This document shows, in pieces, positions 5,694-64,000 of a stretch of 64,000 nucleotides of DNA. The position numbers and the translations under genes are program-made. A model generated the notes under the pieces. It was not told the origin of the DNA, searched no databases, and saw only the letters and a program-made list of their open reading frames with translations. Source of the DNA: a virus. Its lineage: Duplodnaviria > Heunggongvirae > Uroviricota > Caudoviricetes. The stretch lies in the IMG/VR virus record IMGVR_UViG_2854558644_000001. One strand, written 5' to 3'. Numbering within the stretch: the stretch's first letter is position 1; the number at the start of each line of letters is the position of its first letter.

Positions 5694-5758
5694 GAGAGAA
5701 CATATACATATAAAGCTGCACTATCAGGCTATACGGGTAACAGAAAGGAGTGAGATTT

Positions 5759-5956
5759 ATGCACAATTTTAGAAAGTCAAAGCGAATGCGTGACTTTGAT
5801 ATGATATTACGGAAGAACGGTTATACGCCGACAAGGTGCAAGGGAAGTCATTTCGTATATATCAACAGAAATACGCATAGGATAATGCCTGTTAATAAAG
5901 ATTTAAACGACATGGTAAGACAGAGATTAATTAAAGAGTATAACTTGGAGGTGTGA
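5759..5956 (+). CDS. hicA: HicA-family mRNA interferase toxin-like protein
   Basis: KGSHFVY...P...DL motif typical of HicA/YcfA; AAAGGAG SD 8 nt upstream of ATG 5759 (track started at GTG 5750). Confidence 0.6.
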   Translation: MHNFRKSKRMRDFDMILRKNGYTPTRCKGSHFVYINRNTHRIMPVNKDLNDMVRQRLIKEYNLEV

Positions 5957-7229: not shown

Positions 7230-7580
7230 ATGGATAAATTAAGAGTATGGTGGATTCCACAAGCAGGTGCAACAGAGAATTCATTTTATGTTCCTGTAGA
7301 AACAGTTGAAGAAGGCAAAAAAGTAATGGATATGTTAGCAGCATATGATGCATATCAAAGACAGAATAGAATTAAGCCTGATTATTGTAATTGCGGTGGA
7401 ATTCAGAGATGGGATGAAGACTCTCAGGACTGGGAAGATTGGCATATGGAAACAGAAGATGGCTACTTTGATGATGTGGATGATTATTGTGAGCAGTGTG
7501 AAAAGGCAGATAAACTTGAAGAGTTTAGAAATGAATTGTTTAAACAGATTGATTGGGAAAAGATAATGGAAATGTCTTAA
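7230..7580 (+). CDS. hypothetical Cys-rich protein
   Basis: ORF+SD. Confidence 0.55.
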   Translation: MDKLRVWWIPQAGATENSFYVPVETVEEGKKVMDMLAAYDAYQRQNRIKPDYCNCGGIQRWDEDSQDWEDWHMETEDGYFDDVDDYCEQCEKADKLEEFRNELFKQIDWEKIMEMS

Positions 7581-21476: not shown

Positions 21477-21491
21477 AGGATGGTGATAAAA

Positions 21492-22502: not shown

Positions 22503-22516
22503 AGGAGAATAACATA

Positions 22517-23035
22517 ATGGAAATTAAAAGATATATTACGTTTAGAAATAAGAAAAATAATTTTCCAATTTTAAAAGAAAAAGAAAAAATACAATGGAAT
22601 TCAGATTTTTCAACATACGATAAAATTATTGATTTTTTAAATAAAACGTTTGAGATGGAATATTTAGAAGAGGAATATGTTTATATTATATCATTTAATT
22701 GTCAAATGATTCCGCAAGGAGTGTTTGAACTATCACATGGAACAGCAGATACTTCTATAATAAAAATGAGAGAGCTTGCAATATTTCTATTATTGTCTGG
22801 TGCGAATAAATTTATTGTAGCTCATAATCATCCAAATGGTTCAAAAGATGCAAGTGTAAATGATATTAATATCACAAGAAAAATTCAAGAAATGGCGAAT
22901 TTTATTGAAGTTGATTTTCTTCAACATTTTACAATAGGAAATGATGGTTATGATACTTGTATTGATAATGGAGAAGATGACGATATTTTTAAGAAAAATG
23001 GTGAAGAGGACGAAGACTATATGCCATTCAATTAA
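22517..23035 (+). CDS. RadC-like JAB/MPN domain protein
   Basis: HNHPNGSKDASVNDINITRKI JAMM-like motif typical of RadC/DUF2466. Confidence 0.7.
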   Translation: MEIKRYITFRNKKNNFPILKEKEKIQWNSDFSTYDKIIDFLNKTFEMEYLEEEYVYIISFNCQMIPQGVFELSHGTADTSIIKMRELAIFLLLSGANKFIVAHNHPNGSKDASVNDINITRKIQEMANFIEVDFLQHFTIGNDGYDTCIDNGEDDDIFKKNGEEDEDYMPFN

Positions 23036-23121
23036 ACGTAATGAAGTAATTGAGTTGTCTAATGATATCATGTAGAATAGAAACAAGTAAATTTAACTTT
23101 CTTTAGTTTGGAGGTAATGAT

Positions 23122-23412
23122 ATGACAAAAAGTCAAATAGAAAAATTCGCAGTAGGTTATTCTTCTTATCCTACAGACTGTGTGGAAGAAGTATTAAAAG
23201 TTACTAATTTCGATGAAGATGTGGCGAGAGAAATTTTAGATGACAAAGAGAAAACATTAGCAATTTGGCAGAATGGAACAATAATGATTGATGGAGTAAC
23301 ACTTTGTTGTGGATATGATTTCGCAGAAGATGCTTTTAGCAAAAAGATAAATATTGGTTATTGCCCGATTTGTGGAAGAAAAATTGTAATTAAGAAGCCA
23401 ATGAATGAATGA
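23122..23412 (+). CDS. zinc-ribbon protein
   Basis: C-terminal CPICGRK; ORF+SD TGGAGG. Confidence 0.5.
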   Translation: MTKSQIEKFAVGYSSYPTDCVEEVLKVTNFDEDVAREILDDKEKTLAIWQNGTIMIDGVTLCCGYDFAEDAFSKKINIGYCPICGRKIVIKKPMNE

Positions 23413-23442
23413 TTTACTCGGAAGATTGGAAGAGGTGATATA

Positions 23443-23631
23443 GTGAAAGAATTTAGAAATACTGACGAGATTACAAAAGAAGACCTTGAGAAAATGTATA
23501 ACGCAATCGTTAAATTTGATAATTATATTTCATCAGCAACAAGGAAGCCAACAGATGAAAACATTGGACTATATGAACATTGGATTGATTGCAGGTATGA
23601 TATAGAAAATTTAATTGTAACTGAAAGATAA
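23443..23631 (+). CDS. hypothetical protein (GTG start)
   Basis: ORF; SD AGAGGTGA 4 nt upstream of GTG. Confidence 0.45.
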   Translation: MKEFRNTDEITKEDLEKMYNAIVKFDNYISSATRKPTDENIGLYEHWIDCRYDIENLIVTER

Positions 23632-23643
23632 GAGGTGATACAT

Positions 23644-23811
23644 ATGTCAAAAACAATGAATAACCCCAATAAGGTAAAAGCAAAACTTATTGTAGAAGTT
23701 GAAGGAGAATTCTATGATGATGAGTCATCAGAAGAAACATTGAGATATTGTGTTGAACAGGATTTAGAAGATGCTGGATTAAATGTTATTGATGTGTCAG
23801 TAATGAAGTGA
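23644..23811 (+). CDS. small acidic protein (55 aa)
   Basis: ORF+SD GAGGTGATACAT. Confidence 0.45.
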   Translation: MSKTMNNPNKVKAKLIVEVEGEFYDDESSEETLRYCVEQDLEDAGLNVIDVSVMK

Positions 23812-23821
23812 GGTGTGATTG

Positions 23822-24028
23822 ATGGAAAGATATATGGAGTGTTCTAAATGTGGTAAGTCATTACTTGAAAATTCAATTATTGTTGTAAGAACTGGGTTTA
23901 CAGATAAATATTGTTCATATGGTTGTGCAGCAATTGATAGTGGACTTTTTAAAAATATAAAATTAACTGATGAAATTGTCCAAGAACACAAATCTTGTGA
24001 TGGAAGAGATTGGTTAATAGGAAATTGA
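23822..24028 (+). CDS. zinc-ribbon protein
   Basis: CSKCGK...CSYGC; SD GAGGTGTGA. Confidence 0.5.
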   Translation: MERYMECSKCGKSLLENSIIVVRTGFTDKYCSYGCAAIDSGLFKNIKLTDEIVQEHKSCDGRDWLIGN

Positions 24029-24038
24029 GGTGATATAA

Positions 24039-24326
24039 ATGTATGAAGAAGAAATAAATGCGGCATTGATATCCATACAACAATTTAAAATCGCATATAG
24101 TAATGAAAATGGAGTTATTGCAGTTGGTGATATTGAAGATTTAATGGCTAATATTGATACCATAGAAGAATGTGTAAGAAAACAAAAGAGATTTCCAACA
24201 AATAATAAAAGAGAATTTAGCTTATTTGGAAAATCAACAATTGTACATCAGTGCGGTATTTGTGGTAGTAATGTATATTCTACAAATACATATTGTCCTC
24301 AATGTGGGCAAAAATTTTGTATGTGA
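24039..24326 (+). CDS. zinc-ribbon protein
   Basis: CGICGS...CPQCGQK; ORF+SD GAGGTGATATAA. Confidence 0.5.
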   Translation: MYEEEINAALISIQQFKIAYSNENGVIAVGDIEDLMANIDTIEECVRKQKRFPTNNKREFSLFGKSTIVHQCGICGSNVYSTNTYCPQCGQKFCM

Positions 24327-24369
24327 AGTATTGGATTTGATTAATGAGCAGAAGAAACGAGGTGATATA

Positions 24370-24567
24370 ATGATAAATATGACACTAAAAGAGTTGATAG
24401 AATATGAAAGAGAATTGTGCAGCTTACAACAAGAATATGAGGGTAAACTGACTAAGATATATGGAGAGACTGATTCCTCAAGTGAAAAGAGGAGACTAAC
24501 AATTGTTTTGAATCTTATTATTGAAGAAAGACAGAAAGTAAATCGTCAAAAATATAAACCAGTGTAG
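24370..24567 (+). CDS. hypothetical protein
   Basis: ORF+SD GAGGTGATATA. Confidence 0.5.
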   Translation: MINMTLKELIEYERELCSLQQEYEGKLTKIYGETDSSSEKRRLTIVLNLIIEERQKVNRQKYKPV

Positions 24568-24606
24568 TAAATGACGATTTCTTGGTAAATAGAAGGAGAT
24601 GATTAA

Positions 24607-25407
24607 ATGGCGAGAAAGAAAGTAAATAAAGAATTAACCATAGAAGAACAGTTACAGAAAGAAAGAGAAAATGGATTAAGTTTTATTAAAGATGAAGTGT
24701 TACATCTGAATGAACCAACTTATAGATTTGAAGTAGGAGATAAGGTAAAATATGGTGCATTAAAAGACTGTACAGTAAAAGAAGTGTTATATGATGGAAA
24801 GGTATACGGATTACATTGTATTTCTACTGAAGAAAATTATGGGAATCCTTATGATAGAGAAGTATATAGAGTTGCTGAATGGACTAGCGTTAGACCGCTT
24901 ACTAATGGGGATTCAAGGTTTAGTAAAAATCAGGATGTAAAAATCAATTTTATCAATTCAATGATTGAGTCTCTTATCCATAAATATTATGCATTTGGAG
25001 TAGATATGAATCCTGAATATCAGAGAGGATATGTATGGGAGTTAGAAGATAAACAGTTGCTTATAGACAGTATTTTTAACAATATTGATATAGGTAAATT
25101 TGCTTTTATTCATTTGGATGATAAGAAATGGACTGAGACGGGTAATGGATATGAAATACTTGATGGTAAGCAGAGATTAAGCACAATTATTGATTTTTAC
25201 GAGAATAGATTTCCATATAACGGAGTTTATTACAATGACTTATCGGCTAAAGATAAGAATGTTTTCTTAAACCATCATATTGTACAAGGGGAAGTAAGAG
25301 AAGCAGATAGAAGGGCAGTATTAAAATATTTCTTAATGCTCAATAGAACTGGAAAGTCAATGGATCAGTCACACCTTGATAAAGTTGAGAAAATGTTAGA
25401 AGAATAA
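24607..25407 (+). CDS. DUF262 (ParB-like nuclease superfamily, GmrSD N-domain-like) protein
   Basis: LDGKQRLSTI matches DGQQR signature of DUF262. Confidence 0.55.
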   Translation: MARKKVNKELTIEEQLQKERENGLSFIKDEVLHLNEPTYRFEVGDKVKYGALKDCTVKEVLYDGKVYGLHCISTEENYGNPYDREVYRVAEWTSVRPLTNGDSRFSKNQDVKINFINSMIESLIHKYYAFGVDMNPEYQRGYVWELEDKQLLIDSIFNNIDIGKFAFIHLDDKKWTETGNGYEILDGKQRLSTIIDFYENRFPYNGVYYNDLSAKDKNVFLNHHIVQGEVREADRRAVLKYFLMLNRTGKSMDQSHLDKVEKMLEE

Positions 25408-25514
25408 CCCAAAGAAAAATTGCTTTCTTATTGAAAACAAATCAAATATAGAAACAAGTATTAGAAGCAGAAATACCTGCTTCTTTTTTATTGCGGAAAT
25501 GAGGTGAATAATTT

Positions 25515-25820
25515 TTGAGTAGATATAAGAATGGAAATCCAAAACATGCAAGCAGATTCATATGTATGAAATGTATGAATGAAAATATGTTAGCCAGTGG
25601 AATTCAGAGACAGAGACAAAGAGAACGAAAACATATTAAAGATTTGTATTGTTTGAAGTGCGGAGAGGTAACGAAGTGTATCGAAGTAAGATTTTGTGAT
25701 TCATATGAAGAAATTTTTGAGGCTGCAAAGATAAAAAGAGAGAATTATTACATAGACGAATATGAAAGTGAGGTTGATGAATATGTGTTACAAAATAGAA
25801 GTACAAAACAAAAATGCTGA
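25515..25820 (+). CDS. zinc-ribbon protein (TTG start)
   Basis: CMKCMNEN...CLKCGE; SD GAGGTGA 7 nt upstream of TTG. Confidence 0.45.
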   Translation: MSRYKNGNPKHASRFICMKCMNENMLASGIQRQRQRERKHIKDLYCLKCGEVTKCIEVRFCDSYEEIFEAAKIKRENYYIDEYESEVDEYVLQNRSTKQKC

Positions 25821-26763
25821 AAAGCTTAATAGGAAGTTGGATGAGTTAAATTTTCCTATATATATGAGAAAATATTTCACTGTTAAAATTGAAAGTAAAG
25901 CAGGTGCTTTAAATTATCTTGGAGTTATTGTAGATTTGCTCAATTGGTTTATTGAAGAGAAACTTATTGATAAAACAAATATTTCAGATATTGAGCCATC
26001 AGATTTTACTGACATTATGGCAGAAGATATCACGTTATATTTAAAGACTAAAGAACAGAATGGAATGTCACCTACGACATTAGAAACTAGAAAACATATA
26101 ATAAGTAGTTTTTGGGATTATATGAGTAGAGTGAAGGGAACTGAAATTAAAGATGGATTCTTTAAAGATGTAACTTATAAAGGGATTCCATCTGGAAACA
26201 AGTTAACTAAAAAACTTCCAACAGAAAAGCAACTTAATGATATGGAAGAAAAAATAATGTGGAAAAAGGATATTTCAGTAAGAAATAGAAATATTGCTAT
26301 TTTTCGAGTATTAAGAGGAACTGGAATAAGAGAATCTGAACTTGCTGGTTTGGATTTATCTAATTTGCATTTAGATGAAGAAATGCCTTATATTACTATT
26401 CTTGGTAAAGGTGTGTACAGAGAAATGCAAAATAGAATGGTATATCTTAGCGGATCTGCTTTAAAAGCTATAAGAGAGTGGTTAGAATACAGAAGCACAT
26501 TAAGTAACATTATTGATACAGAAGCTGTGTTTGTAAATAAAAATGGAACTCGTACAACAGAAAGAAATATCAAACAGATATTTGAGAATTATGGAAATGG
26601 TATAACACCACATATGATGCGTCATTATTATGCTAGTATAATGAACAGAAATGGAAATCTTGCATTTGTACAGCAGCAGTTAGGACATAGTAATGTAAAT
26701 ACAACAGTTAATAATTATGCAAATGGTGCAGTGGGGATGAAAGATGTGTTAAACAATATGTAA
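25777..26763 (+). CDS. tyrosine recombinase / phage integrase family protein
   Basis: HMMRHYYAS...LGHSNVNTTVNNY catalytic signature; overlaps upstream gene by ~40 nt. Confidence 0.7.
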   Translation: MNMCYKIEVQNKNAEKLNRKLDELNFPIYMRKYFTVKIESKAGALNYLGVIVDLLNWFIEEKLIDKTNISDIEPSDFTDIMAEDITLYLKTKEQNGMSPTTLETRKHIISSFWDYMSRVKGTEIKDGFFKDVTYKGIPSGNKLTKKLPTEKQLNDMEEKIMWKKDISVRNRNIAIFRVLRGTGIRESELAGLDLSNLHLDEEMPYITILGKGVYREMQNRMVYLSGSALKAIREWLEYRSTLSNIIDTEAVFVNKNGTRTTERNIKQIFENYGNGITPHMMRHYYASIMNRNGNLAFVQQQLGHSNVNTTVNNYANGAVGMKDVLNNM

Positions 26764-26777
26764 AGGATGATACAAAG

Positions 26778-26999
26778 TTATTTTGTATCGTCCTTAATAA
26801 ATAATTCGCATGGTGTACATTCTAATGCTTCACACAATTTATTAATTGTATCAAGTCTAATATTGATTGTTTCTCCATTATAGATTTTGCTTACATTATT
26901 TGCGGATATCCCTGTTTGTTTAGAAAGCCAATATTGTGTTTTACCTTTTGCATCTAAAAGATTTTTTACATTAAGCTTGTACATATAGCACCTCTTCAT
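26778..26999 (-). CDS. XRE-family helix-turn-helix transcriptional regulator
   Basis: LSKQTGISANNVSKIYNGE HTH; divergent from MazF-like gene. Confidence 0.7.
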   Translation of the reverse strand: MKRCYMYKLNVKNLLDAKGKTQYWLSKQTGISANNVSKIYNGETINIRLDTINKLCEALECTPCELFIKDDTK

Positions 27000-27052
27000 A
27001 TATTATTTATTTGTATTATAGTAAAAAATAATATATTAATCAATAATATATG

Positions 27053-27081
27053 TTGACATATATTATAATATGATGTATTAT
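27053..27081 (+). promoter_or_regulatory. sigma-70-type promoter for mazF-like gene
   Basis: TTGACA-17 nt-TATTAT with A/T-rich upstream. Confidence 0.5.
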
Positions 27082-27125
27082 ATAAAATATCAAAAGGGAC
27101 AAACAGAGAAAGGAGGGCTAACATA

Positions 27126-27476
27126 ATGGAAATTAAACGTGGTGAAATATATTTCGCTGATATAACTAAATACGATTCTAAAGGCTCAGAACAGAGTGGT
27201 AAAAGACCGGTACTGATATTGCAAAACAATATTGGCAATAAGTTTAGCCCTACCACTATAATTGCCATTATAACAACCAAGTCTAAAAGAGAATTGCCAA
27301 CACATGTAGAAATACATAAAGATGAGCTTAATGGACTAAAATATGATTCTGTTGTGGCATTAGAGCAGATTACAACGATTGATAAAGATCGGATTCAATT
27401 TAAAATTGGTGAATTATCTGCTGAAGATAGTTTAAAGGTTATGGAAGCGATGAAAATAAGTTTGGCTTTGATATAA
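27126..27476 (+). CDS. MazF/PemK-family endoribonuclease toxin-like protein
   Basis: EIKRGEIYFADI...SGKRPVLILQNN...TTIIAIITTK pattern of PemK/MazF. Confidence 0.7.
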   Translation: MEIKRGEIYFADITKYDSKGSEQSGKRPVLILQNNIGNKFSPTTIIAIITTKSKRELPTHVEIHKDELNGLKYDSVVALEQITTIDKDRIQFKIGELSAEDSLKVMEAMKISLALI

Positions 27477-27494
27477 GGGAGAGGAGAGAATATC

Positions 27495-27791
27495 ATGAAG
27501 ACAGAAACATATGATTATACCTCAATTGACGAAGCAATTGAAAGATTACAAAAGCTGAAAGCTGAAGGGAAAAATCCTAAGAATGTAGTAATACTTACAA
27601 TGGATTTTGATAATAATACTTCTTCAAAGAAAATTGCAACACCTGATGATGGGTGCTTATTAGTTAGAAAATCAAAAACAATAATTGTGAATGAGGATGA
27701 GTACATTCCTCATATGCAACTATTTAATGTCGAACAGGACATAAAAAATATTATTAAGAAGGGAATTATGCATGATATTTTGCTAAGATAA
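27495..27791 (+). CDS. hypothetical protein
   Basis: ORF+SD GGGAGAGGAG. Confidence 0.5.
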   Translation: MKTETYDYTSIDEAIERLQKLKAEGKNPKNVVILTMDFDNNTSSKKIATPDDGCLLVRKSKTIIVNEDEYIPHMQLFNVEQDIKNIIKKGIMHDILLR

Positions 27792-27818
27792 TTTCTCGAA
27801 TTTTTGTTCGAATTTATA

Positions 27819-27849
27819 TTGACACAAACACATGTTCGGAGTAATATAA
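27819..27849 (+). promoter_or_regulatory. sigma-70-type promoter
   Basis: TTGACA-17 nt-TAATAT (TATAAT with 19 nt). Confidence 0.5.
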
Positions 27850-27869
27850 TGGAAAAGAAAATAAAAAAT

Positions 27870-27905
27870 GCTTGACTAGCCAGCTACCAACTTTCTAGTC
27901 AAGCA
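27870..27905. repeat. 10-bp perfect inverted repeat GCTTGACTAG/CTAGTCAAGC (16-nt loop)
   Basis: seen directly; downstream of promoter in 300-nt intergenic. Confidence 0.6.
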
Positions 27906-28092
27906 ACATACAAAATCTATTTCTTGGGGGAAAAAGACTAGTACGCATTTAAATTATACATATCAATTATATAAAAATCAATGCATTCGCAGAATTTTTC
28001 CAAATTTTAACAATTTAATAGCATTTTAATTTTTCTTTGGTATACCCAAGGCTTATTAAAGTGCGTCAAAAATCAGAGAGGAGTGATGTTTT

Positions 28093-28761
28093 TTGTTTAT
28101 TCTAACAGATGGAAAAAATTATGTTATGGAGAATCCTATGAAGTCAGGTGAGTATATGATAACGACTTCGAGTTCTATGGCAAAGGAGTTTACTTACAAA
28201 CAAGCGAGGTCATTAGTACAGAACAGCAGAAAGAAGTATTCATGGATTAAGAAATATAATCTTATTGATGTGGATACGGGGCAGAAGTCTGATAAATCTC
28301 TTTATTATAGAGGAAATGCAGATATCTATATAGGAGATAAAAATAATTTTGATTATGCCTTATTAGACAAGATTGAATCAGAAGCTAATTCCATTTTGGG
28401 ATTAGTGGGTTGGGACGACAATCAACTTATAACATATAAAAATTTATTAAATACGGAGTTGTCAAAGTGTGATAGTGCTGAGAGTGATATTAATCATGCA
28501 TTAGAAAAATATAAGAAAATACATAATGGTAAGAAACCACAAGCTCATAAGGTAGCAAAGATAGGATATTTACTTGATGATATACGAGATAAGCATAAAC
28601 GAATAAAGCAATGTATAAGGTACGTTCAGGTTATGCAAGATGCGATAGTCAAAGGATACAACATCGAGAAGATAAAATTAGAACTTAGTAAAGTCACTAG
28701 CGATGATTACAAAGGAAGAACGGAATATTGGAAAATGGCTAATGATATATTGGAGGATTAA
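28093..28761 (+). CDS. hypothetical protein (TTG start or internal ATG 28138)
   Basis: ORF; SD AGAGGAG 7 nt upstream of TTG 28093. Confidence 0.5.
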   Translation: MFILTDGKNYVMENPMKSGEYMITTSSSMAKEFTYKQARSLVQNSRKKYSWIKKYNLIDVDTGQKSDKSLYYRGNADIYIGDKNNFDYALLDKIESEANSILGLVGWDDNQLITYKNLLNTELSKCDSAESDINHALEKYKKIHNGKKPQAHKVAKIGYLLDDIRDKHKRIKQCIRYVQVMQDAIVKGYNIEKIKLELSKVTSDDYKGRTEYWKMANDILED

Positions 28762-28763
28762 TT

Positions 28764-28964
28764 ATGGTGATATGTAGAAACTGTTTAATTCCTATGGTAG
28801 AGACTATGAGTTTTCAACCAGGAGAAAGAAATCGACATAATAGATATTGTAAGTGTCCAAAATGTAAAAGAGAAACTAAGCATATTAAAATTATGAATTC
28901 TGAATTGTCTTTCGGGGAATATATGAATAAAGAAATTCAAAAGGCGGGTAGAAGAAATGATTAA
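28764..28964 (+). CDS. zinc-ribbon protein
   Basis: CRNC...CKCPKCKRE. Confidence 0.5.
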   Translation: MVICRNCLIPMVETMSFQPGERNRHNRYCKCPKCKRETKHIKIMNSELSFGEYMNKEIQKAGRRND

Positions 28965-29598
28965 TGAAGAGATGATGAGGGTTATTAACAATAATCCTGA
29001 AATGATGAAAATTATTAATGATTATTCAGACAACGAAAACAAAAAATTAAAAAGAATATGTCATAAGATTTGGCATGGAAAAGTTGAAGTTAGTGAATAC
29101 GATGATTTATATGAGGTGGCAATGGATTGTCTTATGGAAGCAGTAGTCTCATTTGATCAAAATAAATCTCGTTTTGAAACTTTTCTGACGGGTAATATTG
29201 CAAGAAAGACAAGCACATGGATGAGAGACAACAAATATAGGTTAAAGCGTCAGAATCTCTTAAGGGACGAAAATGGAAAACTAATTCTTGATGAAAAGGG
29301 TAATCCTCAAATTATTATGAATGTCTCATTGGATGTTAATACAGATGAGGTGAAAAGTATTAAAGAGAATTTACCTTCAAGAGAGAATGTAGAAAGAGAA
29401 ATATTCACAGAAGAATATACTGACAAGGTTGAGTTATATTTACAGCAATTACCACGAAAACAGGAAAGGGTAGCGAGGTTATTATCTCAACAATATACAA
29501 AAGATGAGATATTGAAAATATTACATATAACTGCAAATGAATACAATGATTGTTTATCAGGGTTAAGAAAATATGAATACATATCATTATTATTTTAA
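28957..29598 (+). CDS. sigma-70 family RNA polymerase sigma factor-like protein
   Basis: region-2-like DDLYEVAMDCLMEAVVSFDQNKSRFETFLTGNIARK and region-4-like LPRKQERVARLL...TKDEILKILHIT. Confidence 0.5.
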   Translation: MINEEMMRVINNNPEMMKIINDYSDNENKKLKRICHKIWHGKVEVSEYDDLYEVAMDCLMEAVVSFDQNKSRFETFLTGNIARKTSTWMRDNKYRLKRQNLLRDENGKLILDEKGNPQIIMNVSLDVNTDEVKSIKENLPSRENVEREIFTEEYTDKVELYLQQLPRKQERVARLLSQQYTKDEILKILHITANEYNDCLSGLRKYEYISLLF

Positions 29599-29615
29599 TT
29601 AGGAGGAAACAAGTT

Positions 29616-31052
29616 ATGACAATGGTGGGAAGAGACAAAGTTAAAAAAGATCAGATGATGTTAGGAACATTACTTAATCAGTTTAAAAGAGGTCAGATTA
29701 ATAAGAATCATCCTTTGCAGAGAAAGCCTGATCAATGGTCAGATGAGGCAAAGTCAGGACTTGCTGCCACTATAATCAAAGGAGAGGATATTGATTCCAT
29801 TAAAATATGTGAGCAGATTGTAAGCTCGACAGAGTTCATTCTTTGGCTTATTGATGGATTGCAGAGATTAACTGTTCTTGAATCATTTAAGAATAATGCT
29901 TTTGAAATTAAGAAGAGTCTTGAAATGCCAATTATGTACTATCAAGGAGTTGATGAGAATGGAAAAGTTGGAGTTATTAAATATGATCTTAGAGGTAAAA
30001 AATACAAAGATTTACCAGATGAATTAAAGGAAAAATTCGATAGTTATGCTGTTGATATAGTCAAACATCTTGATTGTACAGATGAAGAAATAGCCTATCA
30101 TATTGCAAGATATAACAGACAGACAAGTATGAATGTAAATCAGAAAAATATTTTGGTTGCTTGGAAGATAGCACCTGAGATAAAAAAACTCGTCAGCAAT
30201 CGTTTCTTTATGGATTGTGGAAATTATAATCCAAAAGAAGATACAAAGGAAGTATTTAACAGAATTGTGTGTGAATCTATTATGACTATGTTTCATCTTG
30301 ATAACTGGAAGAAATCAAAACAAATGAGTTTGTATCTTAATGAAAATGCAACGAAAGATGAATTTGAGGTATTTGAGAATGAACTCAATAGGTTGTATGA
30401 GATTACTGATCAAGACACAGTAGGTAAATTGTTTAATTCAAAAAATTCATTTATATGGTTCGCTGCTTTTCATACATTTACACAGTTTGGAATTGAAGAT
30501 ATTAAATTTATTGATTTTCTTGAAGAGTTTCAGAAAACATTACATAGCAAGACATTTGTAGAATATGAGAATAAGAGTTTCGATACTTATGATGATGGTA
30601 AGGGAACTAAAGATAAGAAAGTTGTTAAGGCAAAACTTAACATGCTCGAACAGCTTATGAAGGAATATTTACATATTACAGAAGAAACTAATTCAGAAAC
30701 AGAGAATAATATAAATGAGTCTGATACAAAGTCGTGTGAATCAGATTCAACGCTTGAATTTATTCAGAATAATGTTTCAAAAGATGTATCAAATGAAGAT
30801 ATTGAAGAATATCAGGATTTTATGGATTCATATGTAAACATTGATTCTGAATTATACAAGCAGTGTTCTATAGCATTAATGGCTTTAACTGCTTATGCTT
30901 ACAAATGCGATAGAGATGTTGAATTAGGAAAATGGATTGAAAATTGTCAGTCAAGAAAGTGGCAGAATCTCAGTCCTTCGCAGGAAGTCAATTTCAAATA
31001 TATGAAGAGAAGTTTTGATAATTTCGTCAATGCAAATGGAGGAGCTGCTTAA
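29616..31052 (+). CDS. DUF262 domain protein with long C-terminal extension
   Basis: LIDGLQRLTVL matches DGQQR motif of DUF262. Confidence 0.55.
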   Translation: MTMVGRDKVKKDQMMLGTLLNQFKRGQINKNHPLQRKPDQWSDEAKSGLAATIIKGEDIDSIKICEQIVSSTEFILWLIDGLQRLTVLESFKNNAFEIKKSLEMPIMYYQGVDENGKVGVIKYDLRGKKYKDLPDELKEKFDSYAVDIVKHLDCTDEEIAYHIARYNRQTSMNVNQKNILVAWKIAPEIKKLVSNRFFMDCGNYNPKEDTKEVFNRIVCESIMTMFHLDNWKKSKQMSLYLNENATKDEFEVFENELNRLYEITDQDTVGKLFNSKNSFIWFAAFHTFTQFGIEDIKFIDFLEEFQKTLHSKTFVEYENKSFDTYDDGKGTKDKKVVKAKLNMLEQLMKEYLHITEETNSETENNINESDTKSCESDSTLEFIQNNVSKDVSNEDIEEYQDFMDSYVNIDSELYKQCSIALMALTAYAYKCDRDVELGKWIENCQSRKWQNLSPSQEVNFKYMKRSFDNFVNANGGAA

Positions 31053-31423: not shown

Positions 31424-31582
31424 TGGAAGTATTTTTTATATTAATTGCAGTTGGATTAATGATTATATGGTTTCTACTGTCAAGATTTTTTCAAAAAATA
31501 GGGAATTCTACTATTAATAAAATAAAAGATGTTGTAACAGATGAAATAAATAACGAAGAAGAAAAGGAGACAAAACAACAAT
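31424..31582 (+). CDS. small membrane protein (52 aa) upstream of SPFH gene
   Basis: ORF+SD GGAGAATAA; TM segment; ATGA overlap with next gene. Confidence 0.45.
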
Positions 31583-32450
31583 GAAGAAAGTTGTAGGTGG
31601 CGTTGTATCTGCCATAGTGATACTATTTTTAGCAATAATTTTATTTAAGTCAACAGTTCGTGTTCCAGCGGGATATGTTGCAATCCAGTACAGTATGTCG
31701 GGTGGAATCAAAGGTGACGTATTAACACAGGGATGGCATTTCAAGTCACCCACAGTAAAGACTACATTATATTCTGTAAGCTTAGAACAGTCATATCTTA
31801 CAGCAGGTAAGGACGGAGACTCTAAAGATGATGATAGTTTTTCAGCTAGTTCATCTGAAGGTAAGGCTATGACATTAGATTTAACATTTACATATCAGTA
31901 CAACACTGAAAAGGTCGCTGATTTATTTACAAGGTTTAGAGGACAATCTGGTAAGGAAGTAAGAGATAGTTTTATTAAGCCTAATATCATTTCTTGGACA
32001 AAAGAAGTCGTGGCGCAGTATAAAGTATCTGATATTCTCGGTTCTGAAAGAGCAAATGTTAATGCAGCATTAACAGATTATCTTAATAAAAGATTTTCTA
32101 CATATGGAATTAATATTACAAATGTATCTCTTATTAATATTACTGTAGATGAAAATACGATGGAAGCTATTAATGCAAAGATTACAGCACAGCAGGCAGC
32201 CGAAACTCAGGAAATTAATAATCAGACAGCTATTAATAAGGCAAAGGCTGATGCAGAAGTAACTAAGGCAGAAGCACAAGCAAAGGCTGATGCACAGTTA
32301 ATCGAAGCCAAAGCACAGGCAGAGGCGAATAATAAGTTAAGTTCTTCTATTACAGATGAGCTTATAAGAATGAAGGAAGCCGAAGCAAGAAATAAATTTG
32401 GTTGGGTTACTATTTCTGGAACTAACAATACAGTTGTAACAGATAAGTAA
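31581..32450 (+). CDS. SPFH/band-7 (prohibitin/flotillin-like) membrane protein
   Basis: N-terminal TM, band-7 core and Ala/Gln/Lys-rich coiled coil. Confidence 0.7.
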   Translation: MKKVVGGVVSAIVILFLAIILFKSTVRVPAGYVAIQYSMSGGIKGDVLTQGWHFKSPTVKTTLYSVSLEQSYLTAGKDGDSKDDDSFSASSSEGKAMTLDLTFTYQYNTEKVADLFTRFRGQSGKEVRDSFIKPNIISWTKEVVAQYKVSDILGSERANVNAALTDYLNKRFSTYGINITNVSLINITVDENTMEAINAKITAQQAAETQEINNQTAINKAKADAEVTKAEAQAKADAQLIEAKAQAEANNKLSSSITDELIRMKEAEARNKFGWVTISGTNNTVVTDK

Positions 32451-32488
32451 TTAATAATAAGGGCGTAGTTAATTCTACGCCTTGCTAA

Positions 32489-32561
32489 TGGGATGTGGTG
32501 AAGCGGTCAACACATCAGATTTTGATTCTGACATTCGTGGGTTCGAATCCCACCATCCTAG
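32489..32561 (+). tRNA. tRNA-Gln (anticodon UUG)
   Basis: cloverleaf: acceptor TGGGATG/CATCCTA, D-loop AAGCGGTCAA, anticodon stem TCAGA/TCTGA loop TTTTGAT, T-arm GTGGG-TTCGAAT-CCCAC. Confidence 0.85.
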
Positions 32562-32565
32562 CTGT

Positions 32566-32638
32566 GTGCCATTAGCTCAATAGGTAGAGCACTTGACTTT
32601 TAATCAAGATGTTGAGGGTTCAAGTCCCTTATGGCACA
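32566..32638 (+). tRNA. tRNA-Lys (anticodon UUU)
   Basis: acceptor GTGCCAT/ATGGCAC, D-arm GCTC-AATAGGTA-GAGC, anticodon stem CTTGA/TCAAG loop CTTTTAA, T-arm GAGGG-TTCAAGT-CCCTT. Confidence 0.9.
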
Positions 32639-51789: not shown

Positions 51790-53109
51790 ATGTATTGTGC
51801 TTATATCACAACATTAAAAGGATTAAGAAAACATAGTAACGCTGATAGATTACAGTGTGTAGAAGTATTTGGACAGAATGTAATTGTAGATTTGAGTTAT
51901 CAGGAAGGACAGAAAGTAGTCTTCTTCCCATCTGATGGTCAGTTGTCACTTGAATACGCAACAGATAATAACCTTGTTAGGAAGAAAGACGAGAATGGAA
52001 ACAATATTGGTGGCTACATGGATGCTGAAAAAAGAAACGTAACTGCCATTAGACTTAGAGGCGAGAAGTCAGAAGGTCTTGTGTTGCCAATTGAGACACT
52101 TGCTAAGTATACAGATATTTCAAAATTAAAAGATGGCGATCAGATTACAGTTCTTGGTGGTCATGAAATTTGTCAGAAATATATCCCAAGAGGAAAGAGT
52201 CGTTCAAAAAACAATGGAAACAATTCAAATAAGAAGAACAAGTTTCAGAAAGAGACAATATCATATCCATTTTTTGAAGAACATAAGGATACTGCACAGC
52301 TTGCATATAATATGTCAGCATTTAAGCCAGGAGATACGATTTATATTACTCGTAAGCTCCACGGAACATCAGCTCGTACTATGAAGACTGTCAAGGTTAC
52401 AAAGAAGAATAGTAAGCTGAGAAAGTTTTTACATATAAAGCCAAAGGTTATAAGAGAAGTTTCTGTTGTATCTGGTAGCAGAAGAGTTGTGTTAAAGGAT
52501 ATGACAAAGAATGATGGATATTATGCTGATAATGGATTTAGAAAGAAGTACCACGATTTATTAAAAGATAAGCTTCCTGAAGGGGCTGAAATTTTCTATG
52601 AAATTGTTGGTTATGTAAATGAAACAACACCTATTATGGGTTCTGTGTCTAATAAAGGTGTTAAAGAAAAGAAATTTACAAAGAAGTTTGGCGACACTAC
52701 AACATTCTCATATGGTTGTGAACCAGGTGAAAATGAGATGTATGTATATCGAATGACAATGACAACAGCAGATGGAACAGTTGTTGAAGTACCTTGGGAG
52801 ACTGTAGAAGTATGGTGTGACAAGTTAGGTGTTAAGCATGTACCTGATTTAGAGAAGTTTATCTATACTACACCAGAAGATTTGAAAGAAAGAGTAAATA
52901 AATATCTTGATGGTATGCCAGCAGATGAAATCGGCAAGACACATGTTGCCGAAGGTATAGTTGTTCGTATTGATAACAGAGCAACATTCACGGCTTATAA
53001 GGATAAGGTGTTTGAATTTAAGGTAATTGAGGGAATCGCCAAAGATACATCTGATGTACCTGATATGGAAGAAGCTGAAGAATTATTTGAGGAGACATTA
53101 AATGAATAA
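51790..53109 (+). CDS. ATP-dependent RNA ligase (Rnl family, KxHG motif I)
   Basis: YITRKLHGTSAR nucleotidyltransferase motif I like T4 Rnl2 KIHGTN; adjacent to polynucleotide kinase. Confidence 0.55.
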   Translation: MYCAYITTLKGLRKHSNADRLQCVEVFGQNVIVDLSYQEGQKVVFFPSDGQLSLEYATDNNLVRKKDENGNNIGGYMDAEKRNVTAIRLRGEKSEGLVLPIETLAKYTDISKLKDGDQITVLGGHEICQKYIPRGKSRSKNNGNNSNKKNKFQKETISYPFFEEHKDTAQLAYNMSAFKPGDTIYITRKLHGTSARTMKTVKVTKKNSKLRKFLHIKPKVIREVSVVSGSRRVVLKDMTKNDGYYADNGFRKKYHDLLKDKLPEGAEIFYEIVGYVNETTPIMGSVSNKGVKEKKFTKKFGDTTTFSYGCEPGENEMYVYRMTMTTADGTVVEVPWETVEVWCDKLGVKHVPDLEKFIYTTPEDLKERVNKYLDGMPADEIGKTHVAEGIVVRIDNRATFTAYKDKVFEFKVIEGIAKDTSDVPDMEEAEELFEETLNE

Positions 53110-53992
53110 ACCTACATTATGGGTTATGTGTGGTTTGAGTGGTAGTGGCAAATCAACCATTGCCACTCAGATTGCTAATGAAAATCCAAATACAATAATC
53201 GTATCATCAGATGCAATTCGTGAAGAATTAACTGGTAATTACGAAGACCAAGAACATAATGAAGAAGTGTTTAAAATTTTTCACAATAGAATCCGTAAGA
53301 ATTTGGAGAATAAAAAGAATGTAATTGCAGATGCAACTAATCTGACTATGAAATCTCGTAGAGCAATTATGATGAAAGTAAATGGTTTAAATGTTAGAAA
53401 AGTGTGTGTGATTATTCCAAAGCCATTTGAACAGTGTAAGATTGATAATAAAAATCGTGAGCATCCTGTTCCTAATGAAGTATTGGATAAACAGATTAGA
53501 AGATTTCAGATCCCATTTTACGAAGAAAAATTTGATGAGATTCAGATAAATGTATTTCATAAAGAGAATCGTTTAACTCTTGGAGAAATGTTTTCTATGA
53601 TGGAAGGGTTTGATCAGAAAAACCCTCATCATACTATGGATTTATATAATCACTCATTTCATACATATGAGTTATTTAGTAGTAAATGCTATCCAGCAAA
53701 ATATAATATAGCTGCATTATTACACGATTTTGGAAAAATGTATTGTCAAACATTTGATGAGAATGGCATAGCTCATTACTATGAACATCATGCAATCGGT
53801 TCTTATTTAATTTTAGAGAACCTATCAGGTATATTTTACGAAAATATTGGTGACATATGTTTTCTTATCAACTATCATATGATGCCTTTTAGTTGGGATA
53901 CTGATAAAGCAAAGCAGCGTTGGAAAGAAAGATTTGGAGAATATAAATATAAGATGCTTTTAGATTTTAACGAATGTGATAGAGCGAGGTAA
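53102..53992 (+). CDS. polynucleotide kinase (P-loop) fused to HD-domain phosphohydrolase
   Basis: Walker A GLSGSGKST; HD motifs HHTMDLYNH...LLHDFGK. Confidence 0.65.
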   Translation: MNKPTLWVMCGLSGSGKSTIATQIANENPNTIIVSSDAIREELTGNYEDQEHNEEVFKIFHNRIRKNLENKKNVIADATNLTMKSRRAIMMKVNGLNVRKVCVIIPKPFEQCKIDNKNREHPVPNEVLDKQIRRFQIPFYEEKFDEIQINVFHKENRLTLGEMFSMMEGFDQKNPHHTMDLYNHSFHTYELFSSKCYPAKYNIAALLHDFGKMYCQTFDENGIAHYYEHHAIGSYLILENLSGIFYENIGDICFLINYHMMPFSWDTDKAKQRWKERFGEYKYKMLLDFNECDRAR

Positions 53993-63820: not shown

Positions 63821-64000
63821 ATGCCAGTACATGATGATTTAGGCGTTAGGATGAAGACATTTTATGAGCAGATTCCAAAGACAAAACTGATGAGAAGGTG
63901 TCCAGTTGCTATCAGAATTGATGGAAAAGCGTTCCACACATTCACAAGAGGATTTCAGAAGCCTTTTGATGAAGTTTTGATTAAATCAATGCAGGAAACA
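63821..64000 (+). CDS. Thg1-like protein (tRNA-His guanylyltransferase-like 3'-5' polymerase), N-terminal part; continues past window
   Basis: VRMKTFYEQ...RRCPVAIRIDGKAFHTFTRGFQKPFDEVLIKSMQET matches Thg1 N-terminal RLDGRNFHRF...KPND block. Confidence 0.6.
   Translation, partial: MPVHDDLGVRMKTFYEQIPKTKLMRRCPVAIRIDGKAFHTFTRGFQKPFDEVLIKSMQET

What the first reader, a model, noticed from the sequence alone, without database searches (positions are those of the whole stretch)
32489..32638. tRNA-Gln(UUG) and tRNA-Lys(UUU) pair, the classic anticodon-nuclease substrates, in a genome that also encodes RNA ligase, kinase-phosphatase and a Thg1-like enzyme
Two clean cloverleaf tRNAs lie 4 nt apart. 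tRNA-Lys(UUU) is the target of PrrC- and RloC-type anticodon nucleases. tRNA-Gln and tRNA-Lys are also targets of other tRNA-cleaving toxins. The same window encodes an Rnl-family ligase plus a kinase-HD protein (51790..53992) and a Thg1-like 3'-5' polymerase (63821..). Together these suggest a strategy to withstand host tRNA-depleting defences by both replacing and repairing tRNAs, rather than simple codon-usage compensation.
Basis: partly seen in the sequence, partly recalled or inferred. Interest (0 to 1): 0.6.

Follow-up and report, generated by a model that had tools for sequence, protein, structure and literature searches.

The report
Gut phage Gln/Lys tRNA cassette
Two real tRNA genes, Gln(UUG) and Lys(UUU), sit in a frequently swapped and often decayed accessory slot of a large gut phage that also carries RNA-repair enzymes; this combination is already known from other phages, and the sequence cannot show whether the tRNAs serve codon supply or counter-defence.

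Summary
tRNA-Gln(UUG) lies at 32489-32561 and tRNA-Lys(UUU) at 32566-32638. Both are perfect cloverleaves (Rfam 64.8 and 76.5 bits), 4 nt apart, with no encoded CCA. The window also encodes an Rnl5-like RNA ligase, a polynucleotide-kinase/HD fusion and the start of a Thg1-like protein.

The window comes from an uncultured phage of about 155 kb and 31% GC. Its relatives occur in gut metagenomes and are binned with Clostridia/Lachnospiraceae MAGs.

In relatives the slot after a conserved SPFH gene is a recombining cassette. States seen are Gln+Lys, Gln alone, a 3'-truncated Lys, a truncated Gln, Lys(CUU), Met-like or empty. Intact copies show compensatory stem changes, so they are functional where kept but dispensable.

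Both anticodon loops are canonical. The Lys copy carries the exact sequence cut by E. coli PARIS AriB, so nothing marks it as a nuclease-resistant variant.

Gln and Lys are the only A/G codon pairs where this AT-rich phage under-uses the A-ending codon (CAA 39%, AAA 63%). That fits supply of scarce U34 tRNAs.

The replace-and-repair counter-defence reading stays possible, supported by synteny in relatives and a weak ligase/Lys association, but it is unproven and already published as a hypothesis. Verdict: new member of a known kind, low to moderate interest.

The parts
31581..32450 (+). SPFH/Band-7 gene, the conserved anchor just upstream of the tRNA slot
   Evidence: Pfam Band_7 E 2.6e-25. 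Relatives at 82-100% identity in 41 IMG/VR loci, each followed by the variable tRNA slot. Homologues at 37-39% identity in smaller phages are also followed by tRNA arrays.
32462..32481 (+). Stem-loop between the SPFH stop codon and tRNA-Gln (GGCGTAG-ttaatt-CTACGCC), with no T-run on the + strand
   Evidence: Sequence. The scan calls it terminator-like only on the - strand. Relatives have a hairpin at the same place with a different sequence, so the structure is conserved and travels with the cassette.
32489..32561 (+). tRNA-Gln(UUG): U1-A72, G73, anticodon loop UUUUGAU, no CCA
   Evidence: Across 15 distinct alleles, 93.7% of cells are paired, 3 pairs change on both sides, and the anticodon stem is 100% paired.
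32562..32565 (+). 4-nt spacer CTGT
32566..32638 (+). tRNA-Lys(UUU): A73, anticodon loop CUUUUAA, anticodon stem CUUGA/UCAAG, no CCA
   Evidence: Across 12 distinct alleles, 95.6% of cells are paired and 4 pairs change on both sides. The 26-nt D-arm to anticodon-arm stretch is identical to more than 118 other tRNA-Lys genes in IMG/VR.
51790..53109 (+). ATP-dependent RNA ligase, Rnl5-like (N-terminal OB domain plus nucleotidyltransferase domain)
   Evidence: PF09414 and PF21189. TIGR02306 DraRnl E 3e-14, below the equivalog cut-off. A profile of 14 homologues hits Naegleria RNA ligase 5COT at E 0.003. Motifs KLHGTS, EIFYEIVG, EGIVVR and KDKVFEFK are present. 52% identical to the ligases of Bacillus phages Kirov, PBC2 and Thrax.
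53102..53992 (+). 5'-OH polynucleotide kinase fused to a C-terminal HD phosphohydrolase domain (Pnk-HD); overlaps the ligase gene by 8 nt
   Evidence: AAA_33 E 7e-27 and HD E 2e-4. C. thermocellum Pnkp kinase 4GP7 E 6e-10. The HD region resembles that of CCA-adding enzymes, TIGR02692 E 2.5e-7. The AF2 model (overall pLDDT 71, HD domain about 90) matches the CthPnk/T4 Pnk fold in the N-terminal domain and the HD fold (PhnZ) in the C-terminal domain.
63821..64000 (+). N-terminal 60 residues of a Thg1-like protein (3'-5' nucleotidyltransferase), cut by the window end
   Evidence: PF04446 E 1.5e-11. A relative whose first 60 residues are identical encodes a 288-aa protein that hits Bacillus thuringiensis TLP 4KGK at E 4e-61.

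Best explanation
The two genes are functional elongator tRNAs. They are transcribed together from the long rightward early/accessory operon, released by RNase P and 3' trimming, and completed by a CCA-adding enzyme. They form an exchangeable accessory cassette downstream of the SPFH gene in a roughly 155-kb, 31% GC phage of gut Clostridia.

Their most likely role is to raise the pool of the U34 isoacceptors that read CAA and AAA. The host probably serves these poorly because it relies on C34 isoacceptors for CAG and AAG. Mutation pressure keeps generating A-ending codons in this AT-rich phage.

Shown: the tRNAs are real, structurally constrained, dispensable and mosaic; the codon pattern is as described. 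Inferred: expression, processing, the host tRNA pool and the selective benefit.
For: - **Real and constrained.** High Rfam scores. Compensatory changes keep all four stems across alleles.
- **AAA demand.** AAA is the third most used codon, 59.5 per 1000.
- **Codon deviation is specific.** Among A/G-ending codon pairs only Gln (CAA share 0.39) and Lys (0.63) are depressed. Glu is 0.75, Leu TTR 0.74 and Arg AGR 0.84. Bacillus phage Kirov (35.7% GC) has CAA 0.78, and another AT-rich relative has 0.90. The deviation is therefore specific to the two amino acids whose U34 tRNAs the phage carries.
- **No tRNA-Glu(UUC) at the loci sampled from close relatives**. This fits supply, because Firmicute hosts normally decode both Glu codons with one abundant tRNA (general knowledge, not tested here). 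It fits less well a nuclease aimed at all xm5s2U tRNAs.
- **Other tRNAs in relatives are also U34 readers of A-ending codons:** Ile(UAU) and Leu(UAA).
- **tRNA-Gln(UUG) was acquired repeatedly.** At least 10 sequence-distinct lineages occur in this phage group.
- **Canonical anticodon stem-loops**.
Against: - The host is not identified. Only MAG bins of Lachnospiraceae, Clostridium and Clostridia were found, so the host tRNA pool and codon usage are assumed, not measured.
- CAA is rare in absolute terms (about 11 per 1000). AGA, TTA, ATA and GGA are more frequent, yet close relatives carry no tRNAs for them at the loci sampled, so demand alone does not predict Gln as the most persistent tRNA.
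- Local codon usage does not differ between relatives with and without intact tRNAs.
- Only about 75 kb of a roughly 155-kb genome could be scanned for tRNAs.
- A depressed CAA/AAA share is also what long-term depletion of these tRNAs by host nucleases would produce.
Confidence: 0.45

Rival explanations
1. Counter-defence. Host anticodon or anticodon-stem nucleases (PrrC/RloC-, PARIS- or Cas13a/HEPN-like) deplete tRNA-Lys(UUU) and tRNA-Gln(UUG) on infection. The phage replenishes them from its own genes and repairs broken ones with Pnk-HD (healing), the Rnl5-like ligase (sealing) and the Thg1-like protein (5'-end rebuilding).
For: - Lys(UUU) is the documented target of PrrC and PARIS. Lys(UUU) and Gln(UUG) are among the four preferred Cas13a substrates.
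- All enzymes of a heal-and-seal pathway are present.
- In relatives L366 and L461 the order is HNH, ligase, Pnk-HD, SPFH and then a tRNA array within about 8 kb. L366 adds a CCA-adding enzyme, RlaP and Thg1 nearby.
- All 7 contigs that carry both the window-family tRNA-Gln and a detected ligase have an intact Lys(UUU), against 16 of 29 others (hypergeometric p about 0.03, uncorrected).
- Patchy presence, cassette swapping and neighbouring anti-defence genes (three DNA methylases; Tad2-like and NAD-salvage genes in relatives) are typical of arms-race loci.
- Unpaired positions in tRNA-Lys alleles concentrate in the anticodon stem, including position 39, which is the T5 escape position.
Against: - The window's own copies are canonical. 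Lys has U36AAUC|A41 and U16, the AriB-sensitive states, and a standard CUUUUAA loop.
- AriB does not cut tRNA-Gln(UUG).
- Overexpressing Lys, Gln, Glu and Leu tRNAs did not rescue growth under Cas13a targeting.
- There is no phage tRNA-Glu(UUC), which a nuclease aimed at all U34 tRNAs would make most limiting.
- About 77 of 84 ligase-bearing contigs lack this tRNA family. At least 8 near-complete genomes with the tRNA slot have no detected ligase.
- Thg1-like genes occur in 162 cultured-phage records with very different tRNA sets.
- The association test is confounded by shared ancestry and incomplete contigs.
Confidence: 0.3
2. Neutral passenger. A fragment of a Firmicute tRNA operon was captured at a recombination hot spot and is slowly decaying, so the Gln-Lys pairing reflects the donor's gene order and not selection.
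For: - A Staphylococcus-type chromosomal operon has the same Gln then Lys order with a 3-nt gap.
- Many relatives carry truncated or mismatched copies.
- The flanks are mosaic: SPFH is 96% identical where Lys is only 81%.
Against: - Compensatory substitutions maintain the stems over many alleles.
- tRNA-Gln(UUG) recurs in at least 10 independent sequence lineages in this phage group.
- The window copies are flawless.
- Identity to the Staphylococcus-type operon is only 75%, and the phage genes lack the encoded CCA.
Confidence: 0.1
3. Self-protection during host takeover. The phage's own RNases (PemK/MazF-like 27126-27476, HicA-like 5750-5956) or host shut-off destroy or stop renewal of host tRNAs, and the phage tRNAs and repair enzymes keep phage translation running.
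For: - A MazF-family toxin with no obvious antitoxin and a HicA-like ORF lie in the same early region.
- Loss of the host tRNA pool as a driver of tRNA acquisition is a published hypothesis, summarised in PMC13015707.
Against: - No evidence on the specificity of this MazF.
- No linkage between the toxin and the tRNA slot was examined.
- A general shut-off would call for a broad tRNA set, not two.
Confidence: 0.08

Closest known systems
Phage T4 tRNA genes plus Pnkp/Rnl1 repair of PrrC-cleaved tRNA-Lys
   Same: A large virulent-type phage carries its own tRNAs together with a 5'-kinase/3'-end-healing enzyme and an ATP-dependent RNA ligase. tRNA-Lys(UUU) is the relevant substrate.
   Different: The healing phosphoesterase here is an HD domain, not the T4 DxDxT/HAD domain. 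The ligase is Rnl5-like (N-terminal OB domain), not Rnl1. No PrrC-like host nuclease is known for this phage. T4 does not rely on a phage tRNA-Lys.
Phage T5 tRNA-Lys(UUU), Thr and Asn variants that neutralise PARIS (AriB)
   Same: A phage-encoded tRNA-Lys(UUU) sits in an accessory tRNA region. Some relatives carry anticodon-stem changes at or near T5's escape positions.
   Different: T5 tRNA-Lys has U39A, A41C and U16C. The window copy has the sensitive U39, A41 and U16. There is no Thr(UGU) or Asn(GUU) partner. tRNA-Gln is not an AriB substrate.
RNA ligase plus polynucleotide kinase module of large Bacillus siphophages (Kirov, PBC2, Thrax; Andregratiavirinae)
   Same: The ligase is 52% identical and is immediately followed by a polynucleotide kinase gene.
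   Different: Different host group. No DNA-level similarity. No tRNAs lie in the 25-kb Kirov stretch examined.
Runella slithyformis HD-Pnk and Clostridium thermocellum Pnkp bacterial RNA end-healing enzymes
   Same: A P-loop 5'-OH polynucleotide kinase of the CthPnk clade is combined with a metal-dependent phosphoesterase and linked to an RNA ligase gene.
   Different: The domain order here is Pnk then HD, whereas Runella is HD then Pnk (from the literature, not tested here). CthPnkp uses a calcineurin-type phosphoesterase and carries its own ligase domain.
Bacterial Thg1-like proteins (BtTLP, PDB 4KGK)
   Same: E 4e-61 over the full length of the relative's orthologue. This is the family that rebuilds 5'-truncated tRNAs by templated 3'-5' addition.
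   Different: Only 60 residues lie in the window. The activity and substrate of phage versions are untested. Such genes are already annotated in 162 cultured-phage records.

Membership tests
tRNA (Rfam RF00005) | Cloverleaf with a 7-bp acceptor stem, D, anticodon and T arms, U33, a TTCRANY T-loop and G18G19 | tested here: met
   64.8 and 76.5 bits against a gathering score of 29, full-length alignments. ARAGORN agrees.
tRNA (Rfam RF00005) | Stems kept by compensatory change among homologues | tested here: met
   Lys has 4 pairs and Gln 3 pairs with changes on both sides. 0 of 500 shuffles reach the observed covariation score. Slid controls pair at only 26-49%.
tRNA-Gln / tRNA-Lys identity | Gln: U1-A72, G73, U35. 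Lys: U35, A73 (identity elements from the literature) | tested here: met
   Read directly from the sequence. Aminoacylation itself cannot be tested with these tools.
Nuclease-resistant phage tRNA variants (T5 / mycobacteriophage type) | Substitutions, relative to the host tRNA, at the nuclease's recognition or cleavage positions in the anticodon stem-loop | tested here: inconclusive
   Against the only mapped determinants available (E. coli AriB: U16, U39, A41, motif UAAUC|A) the window tRNA-Lys has the sensitive states. Its D-arm to anticodon-arm 26-mer equals more than 118 other tRNA-Lys genes. The true host and its nucleases are unknown.
T4-type Pnkp/Rnl1 tRNA repair | 5'-OH polynucleotide kinase P-loop domain | tested here: met
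   GLSGSGKST P-loop. CthPnk 4GP7 E 6e-10. Fold match to CthPnk and T4 Pnk.
T4-type Pnkp/Rnl1 tRNA repair | DxDxT (HAD) 3'-phosphatase domain fused to the kinase | tested here: not met
   The C-terminal domain is an HD fold (PF01966 E 2e-4; TIGR02692 HD region E 2.5e-7; Foldseek hits PhnZ). The role is analogous but the family is different.
T4-type Pnkp/Rnl1 tRNA repair | Rnl1-family ligase | tested here: not met
   No Rnl1 hit was returned. The best matches are DraRnl (TIGR02306) and NgrRnl (5COT), with T4 Rnl2 only at E 0.14.
Rnl5 (DraRnl/NgrRnl) RNA ligases | N-terminal OB domain followed by a nucleotidyltransferase domain with KxHGxS motif I and motifs III, IV and V | tested here: met
   PHA02142 OB domain at residues 6-101 and RNA_ligase at 183-398. 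Motifs read. NgrRnl E 0.003 over the OB domain. The score is below the TIGR02306 equivalog cut-off, so this is a distant member or sister group.
Rnl5 (DraRnl/NgrRnl) RNA ligases | Seals 3'-OH/5'-PO4 nicks in duplex RNA | not testable with these tools
   Needs biochemistry.
Thg1-like proteins (TLP) | Thg1 catalytic N-terminal domain and full-length similarity to bacterial TLPs | tested here: met
   PF04446 E 1.5e-11 on the 60 residues in the window. The 288-aa orthologue in L187 hits BtTLP 4KGK at E 4e-61.
Suppressor tRNA / stop-codon recoding phages | An anticodon complementary to a stop codon plus in-frame stops in genes | tested here: not met
   The window anticodons are UUG and UUU. The 139 tightly packed ORFs read normally in the standard code. 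The one UUA allele (L027) sits in a locus that uses TAA for 13 of 17 stops.

The most novel reading that the evidence does not exclude
The slot after the SPFH gene is an arms-race cassette. Alleles of tRNA-Lys that differ in the anticodon stem (pair 29-41 as U-A, C-G or A-U; mismatches at 31-39, 30-40 and 28-42; a UUU to CUU switch) are shuffled by recombination to escape stem-cutting tRNases of gut Clostridia, such as PARIS-AriB-like Toprim nucleases. A duplex-nick-sealing Rnl5-type ligase with Pnk-HD and a Thg1-like protein forms a matching repair arm that specialises in stem nicks and not loop nicks.
Probability: 0.15. Interest if true: 0.6.

Novelty: new member of a known kind. Interest (0 to 1): 0.3.

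Why it matters
If the counter-defence reading were shown, this abundant and uncultured clade of roughly 150-kb gut Clostridia phages would be a natural system for studying tRNA-targeting immunity outside E. coli. It offers ready-made allelic series: intact, mismatched, anticodon-switched and truncated tRNA-Lys.

As it stands, the finding mainly adds another phage that combines tRNA genes with heal-and-seal RNA repair enzymes. Its useful by-product is a specific, testable codon-usage signature: only the Gln and Lys boxes deviate. Measured host data could use that signature to separate the supply and defence hypotheses.

Tried and rejected
- **Close relatives in curated collections.** Megablast of the tRNA region, the repair region and 24 kb of the window against cultured phages and plasmids gave no match.
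- **Host identification.**
  - The genome-contig scan with the ligase returned only MAGs at <=69% identity.
  - Cluster look-ups gave no organism names.
  - Encoding contigs are all metagenomic.
  - The host therefore stays inferred as Clostridia/Lachnospiraceae.
- **Third tRNA.** The ARAGORN tRNA-Val(AAC) call at 3223-3297 was rejected because Rfam finds nothing there even at E<=1.
- **Suppressor or recoding role.** Rejected.
- **tRNA-dependent lysogeny or an att site.** The two tyrosine recombinases lie 6-11 kb upstream, not beside the tRNAs. Not pursued.
- **Codon usage versus tRNA state.** No link was seen across 41 relatives.
- **Ligase against PDB.** The single sequence gave nothing. Only a profile gave a marginal NgrRnl hit.
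- **Neighbouring ORFs.** PHROGs and PADLOC on the neighbours of the tRNAs and repair genes found nothing RNA-related.
- **Own promoter.** No + strand sigma-70-like site lies near the tRNAs.
Full report
**Observation**

ARAGORN and the Rfam tRNA covariance model agree on two tRNA genes on the + strand.
- tRNA-Gln(UUG) lies at 32489-32561 (64.8 bits, E 8e-12).
- tRNA-Lys(UUU) lies at 32566-32638 (76.5 bits, E 5e-15).
- Both cover the whole model with no non-canonical pairs.
- They are separated by the 4 nt CTGT. Neither encodes CCA.
- Gln has U1-A72 and G73. Lys has A73. Both have standard T-loops and G18G19.

A third ARAGORN call, Val(AAC) at 3223-3297, gets no Rfam support even at E<=1, so I do not count it.

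- An RNA ligase at 51790-53109.
- A kinase-HD fusion at 53102-53992.
- The first 60 residues of a Thg1-family protein at 63821-64000.

**Genome context**

- The window is 31% GC.
- It holds about 139 tightly packed ORFs, all on the + strand.
- It has no DNA-level relative among cultured phages or plasmids.
- Pfam annotation of every ORF shows an early/accessory region: three DNA methylases, HNH endonucleases, two tyrosine recombinases, RadC, DUF262/NsnA-like proteins, a PemK/MazF toxin, a HicA-like ORF, a sliding-clamp homologue, LemA, an SPFH protein and a PurA-like protein.
- Just beyond the window end, relatives continue with the Thg1-like gene followed by a replication module with a helicase and a primase.
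- IMG/VR holds hundreds of related contigs of about 110-200 kb. Further relatives were found in human gut (Hadza) metagenome assemblies.
- One contig, IMGVR_UViG_3300045988_154984 (159,485 bp), is identical over the SPFH gene and both tRNAs. It is only 96% identical in the ligase, so the window is a mosaic relative of it.
- The only hint at the host is that related contigs were binned into Lachnospiraceae, Clostridium and Clostridia MAGs.

**The tRNA slot in relatives**

In 41 loci whose SPFH protein is 82-100% identical to the window's, the stretch after the SPFH stop codon starts with a hairpin. The hairpin's sequence varies but its structure is kept. After it comes a variable tRNA cassette.

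The states seen are:
- Gln(UUG) plus Lys(UUU).
- Gln followed by a tRNA-Lys that has lost its 3' half.
- A different tRNA-Gln truncated in the T arm.
- Gln plus Lys(CUU).
- Gln plus Met.
- A Met-like tRNA alone.
- A second, unrelated tRNA-Gln 1.4 kb further on.
- One allele whose Gln anticodon reads UUA.

A pattern search for the window-type tRNA-Gln found 36 contigs.
- 23 have an intact Lys(UUU) next to it.
- 8 have the truncated Lys.
- 3 have a CUU or decayed copy.
- 2 have none.

The cassette is mosaic relative to its flanks. Loci with a 96% identical SPFH gene have a Lys gene only 81% identical. Loci with an 87% identical SPFH gene have a 99% identical Gln gene.

Intact alleles show clear compensatory evolution.
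- tRNA-Lys: four pairs change on both sides.
- tRNA-Gln: three pairs change on both sides.
- 94-96% of cells are paired, against 26-49% when the partners are slid.

The tRNAs are therefore functional where they are kept. They are also dispensable and turn over quickly.

In tRNA-Lys the unpaired cells concentrate in the anticodon stem (88% paired). In tRNA-Gln that stem is always paired.

tRNA-Gln(UUG) is the signature tRNA of the wider group.
- It is present in 30 of 41 close SPFH loci and 19 of 24 distant ones.
- It occurs in at least ten sequence lineages that are less than 85% identical to each other. That points to repeated acquisition.

**Codon usage**

Over 18,379 codons of the window:
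- AAA is the third most used codon (59.5 per 1000).
- CAA is rare (about 11 per 1000) and is the minor Gln codon (39%).

The share of the A-ending codon in each A/G pair is:

| Pair | A-ending share |
|---|---|
| Gln (CAA) | 0.39 |
| Lys (AAA) | 0.63 |
| Leu TTR (TTA) | 0.74 |
| Glu (GAA) | 0.75 |
| Arg AGR (AGA) | 0.84 |

The same holds across relatives, where CAA is 0.26-0.52. A Bacillus phage of similar composition (Kirov locus, 35.7% GC) has CAA 0.78 and AAA 0.67. Another AT-rich relative (L350) has CAA 0.90.

So the only two boxes in which this clade departs from its own AT bias are those whose U34 tRNAs it carries. The simplest reading is a host that decodes CAG and AAG well through C34 isoacceptors and has few U34 isoacceptors. 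This also explains the absence of a phage tRNA-Glu, because bacteria normally read both Glu codons with one abundant tRNA.

The reading has weaknesses.
- It rests on an unidentified host.
- It does not explain why no tRNAs for the commoner AGA, TTA or ATA codons were found at the loci sampled from close relatives. More distant relatives do carry Ile(UAU) and Leu(UAA).
- Long-term nuclease depletion of these two tRNAs would leave the same codon signature.

**Test of the resistant-replacement idea**

The window's anticodon loops are canonical: CUUUUAA for Lys and UUUUGAU for Gln.

The 26 nt from the D arm through the anticodon arm of tRNA-Lys are identical to more than 118 other tRNA-Lys genes in IMG/VR. 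Many of these lie at the ends of contigs.

The one nuclease with mapped determinants is E. coli PARIS AriB (PMC12409363).
- It cuts between positions 40 and 41 within U36AAUC|A41.
- It is blocked by the T5 changes U39A, A41C and U16C.
- It does not cut tRNA-Gln(UUG).

The window tRNA-Lys has U16, U39 and A41, the sensitive states. Some relatives differ at exactly these places: pair 29-41 is U-A, C-G or A-U, and L023 has C39. That is suggestive, but pair 29-41 also varies between bacterial species.

Cas13a prefers Lys(UUU), Glu(UUC), Gln(UUG) and Thr(UGU). In that study, overexpressing the Lys, Gln, Glu and Leu tRNAs did not rescue growth (PMC11042736).

**The RNA-repair genes**

*Ligase.*
- It has an N-terminal OB domain (PF21189) and a nucleotidyltransferase domain (PF09414).
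- Motif I is KLHGTS, and motifs III, IV and V are present.
- Its nearest characterised relatives are the Rnl5 enzymes DraRnl (TIGR02306, E 3e-14, below the cut-off) and Naegleria RNA ligase (profile E 0.003).
- It is 52% identical to the ligases of Bacillus phages Kirov, PBC2 and Thrax, where a polynucleotide kinase gene also follows.

*Pnk-HD.*
- The next gene overlaps the ligase gene by 8 nt.
- It encodes a P-loop polynucleotide kinase of the C. thermocellum Pnkp clade (4GP7, E 6e-10).
- This is fused to an HD domain that resembles the HD domain of CCA-adding enzymes.
- An AlphaFold model (mean pLDDT 71, HD domain about 90) matches Pnk folds in the N-terminal domain and HD folds in the C-terminal domain.

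*Thg1-like protein.* The full-length orthologue (288 aa) hits Bacillus thuringiensis TLP at E 4e-61. Such genes are already annotated in 162 cultured-phage records.

Together these are a plausible heal-and-seal pathway plus 5'-end rebuilding. It is analogous to T4 Pnkp/Rnl1 but built from different families.

**Are the tRNAs and the repair genes linked?**

*For linkage.*
- In more distant relatives (L366, L461) the gene order is HNH, ligase, Pnk-HD, three small ORFs, SPFH, a phosphoribosyltransferase, a Tad2-like gene and then a tRNA array that includes Gln(UUG). All of this lies within about 8 kb.
- L366 also has a Thg1-like gene, RlaP and a CCA-adding enzyme just upstream.
- Among the 36 contigs with the window-type tRNA-Gln, the 7 that also appear on the ligase lists all have an intact Lys(UUU), in four different alleles. 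Among the other 29, 16 do. The hypergeometric p is about 0.03.

*Against linkage.*
- That test is not corrected for shared ancestry, and detection was limited by pattern-based searches and partial contigs.
- About 77 of 84 ligase-bearing contigs lack this tRNA family.
- At least eight near-complete genomes with the slot have no detected ligase.
- In the window the two modules are 19 kb apart.

They are separable accessory modules.

**Synthesis**

I commit to the following.
- **Settled:** the two genes are functional, co-transcribed, CCA-less elongator tRNAs in a recombining accessory cassette.
- **Most likely benefit (0.45):** supply of scarce U34 decoders for CAA and AAA in an AT-rich phage whose host favours CAG and AAG.
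- **Main rival (0.30):** The anticodon-stem allele series in tRNA-Lys is its most interesting lead.
- **Minor alternatives:** a decaying passenger captured from a Firmicute tRNA operon, given that the same Gln-Lys order exists in a Staphylococcus-type operon; and protection from the phage's own RNases or host shut-off.

The counter-defence idea is already in the literature, including the pairing of a phage tRNA-Lys with an RNA ligase (PMC10264068). This is a new member of a known kind.

**Limits**

- The host is unknown.
- Only about 75 kb of the genome was searched for tRNAs.
- Expression and charging are inferred.
- The co-occurrence statistics are rough.

Noticed in passing
window 2038-2106 (+): Pistol self-cleaving ribozyme, 60 bits against a gathering score of 34.5. 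It lies right after the stop of ORF 1601-2038 and opens a stretch of about 1.2 kb with no convincing ORF.
   Followed up: no
window 3223-3297 (+): tRNA-like element that ARAGORN calls tRNA-Val(AAC). It has a good acceptor stem and T arm, a long anticodon stem and a poor D arm. Rfam gives no hit even at E<=1.
   Followed up: partly
window, all ORFs; also L187, L366, L461, L346: In a 31-33% GC phage clade CAG is preferred over CAA (CAA share 0.27-0.45) and AAA is only mildly preferred. Every other A/G pair is strongly A-biased. Bacillus phage Kirov has CAA 0.78.
   Followed up: yes
window 60716-61807 (+): Short (363 aa) adenylosuccinate-synthetase-like protein. PurA models score 83-99 bits and the PurZ model 43.6 bits, all far below their cut-offs. 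Whether it makes a modified purine was not examined.
   Followed up: no
window 27126-27476 and 5750-5956 (+): A phage-encoded PemK/MazF-family endoribonuclease (E 3e-29) with no obvious antitoxin next to it, and a HicA-like ORF.
   Followed up: no
window 21480-31052 (+): An island with two tyrosine recombinases, RadC, two DUF262 proteins that hit the PADLOC NsnA model (E 1e-17), a MazF toxin and a sigma-like protein, ending just before the SPFH gene and the tRNAs.
   Followed up: no
L027 6856-6928: One relative's tRNA-Gln allele has anticodon UUA (ochre-suppressor-like), and its neighbouring tRNA-Lys is decayed. The locus uses TAA for 13 of 17 stops and has normal coding density, so there is no sign of recoding.
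   Followed up: yes
L044-L049, about 7435-7509: In smaller phages with a distant SPFH gene, the same tRNA reads Arg(ACG) in some contigs and 'His'(AUG) in others through a single C35-to-U change. The same arrays hold a tRNA with the unusual anticodon AAU.
   Followed up: partly
L040, L041, L431, L450 (slot after SPFH): A tRNA-Lys allele with anticodon CUU whose anticodon stem has a C28-A42 mismatch. It looks like a recombinant of a Lys(CUU) 5' half, as in L035, and a Lys(UUU) 3' half.
   Followed up: partly
L366 1-20891; L362 1-20900: Relatives lie on metagenomic contigs of 580 kb and 481 kb. L366 clusters Thg1, RlaP, a CCA-adding enzyme, ligase, Pnk-HD, SPFH, Tad2-like genes and tRNAs. L362 has NAMPT, NADAR and NAD synthase (NAD salvage) upstream of the methylases, ligase and Pnk-HD, and a metallophosphoesterase right after Pnk-HD.
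   Followed up: partly
L331 (tRNA-Gln near the ligase): A tRNA-Gln(UUG) of 94 nt with an insert of about 21 nt in the variable region.
   Followed up: no
L044-L067 and L003-L043: An SPFH/Band-7 gene is immediately followed by a tRNA array in two phage groups whose SPFH proteins are only 37-39% identical. This is a conserved but unexplained linkage.
   Followed up: partly
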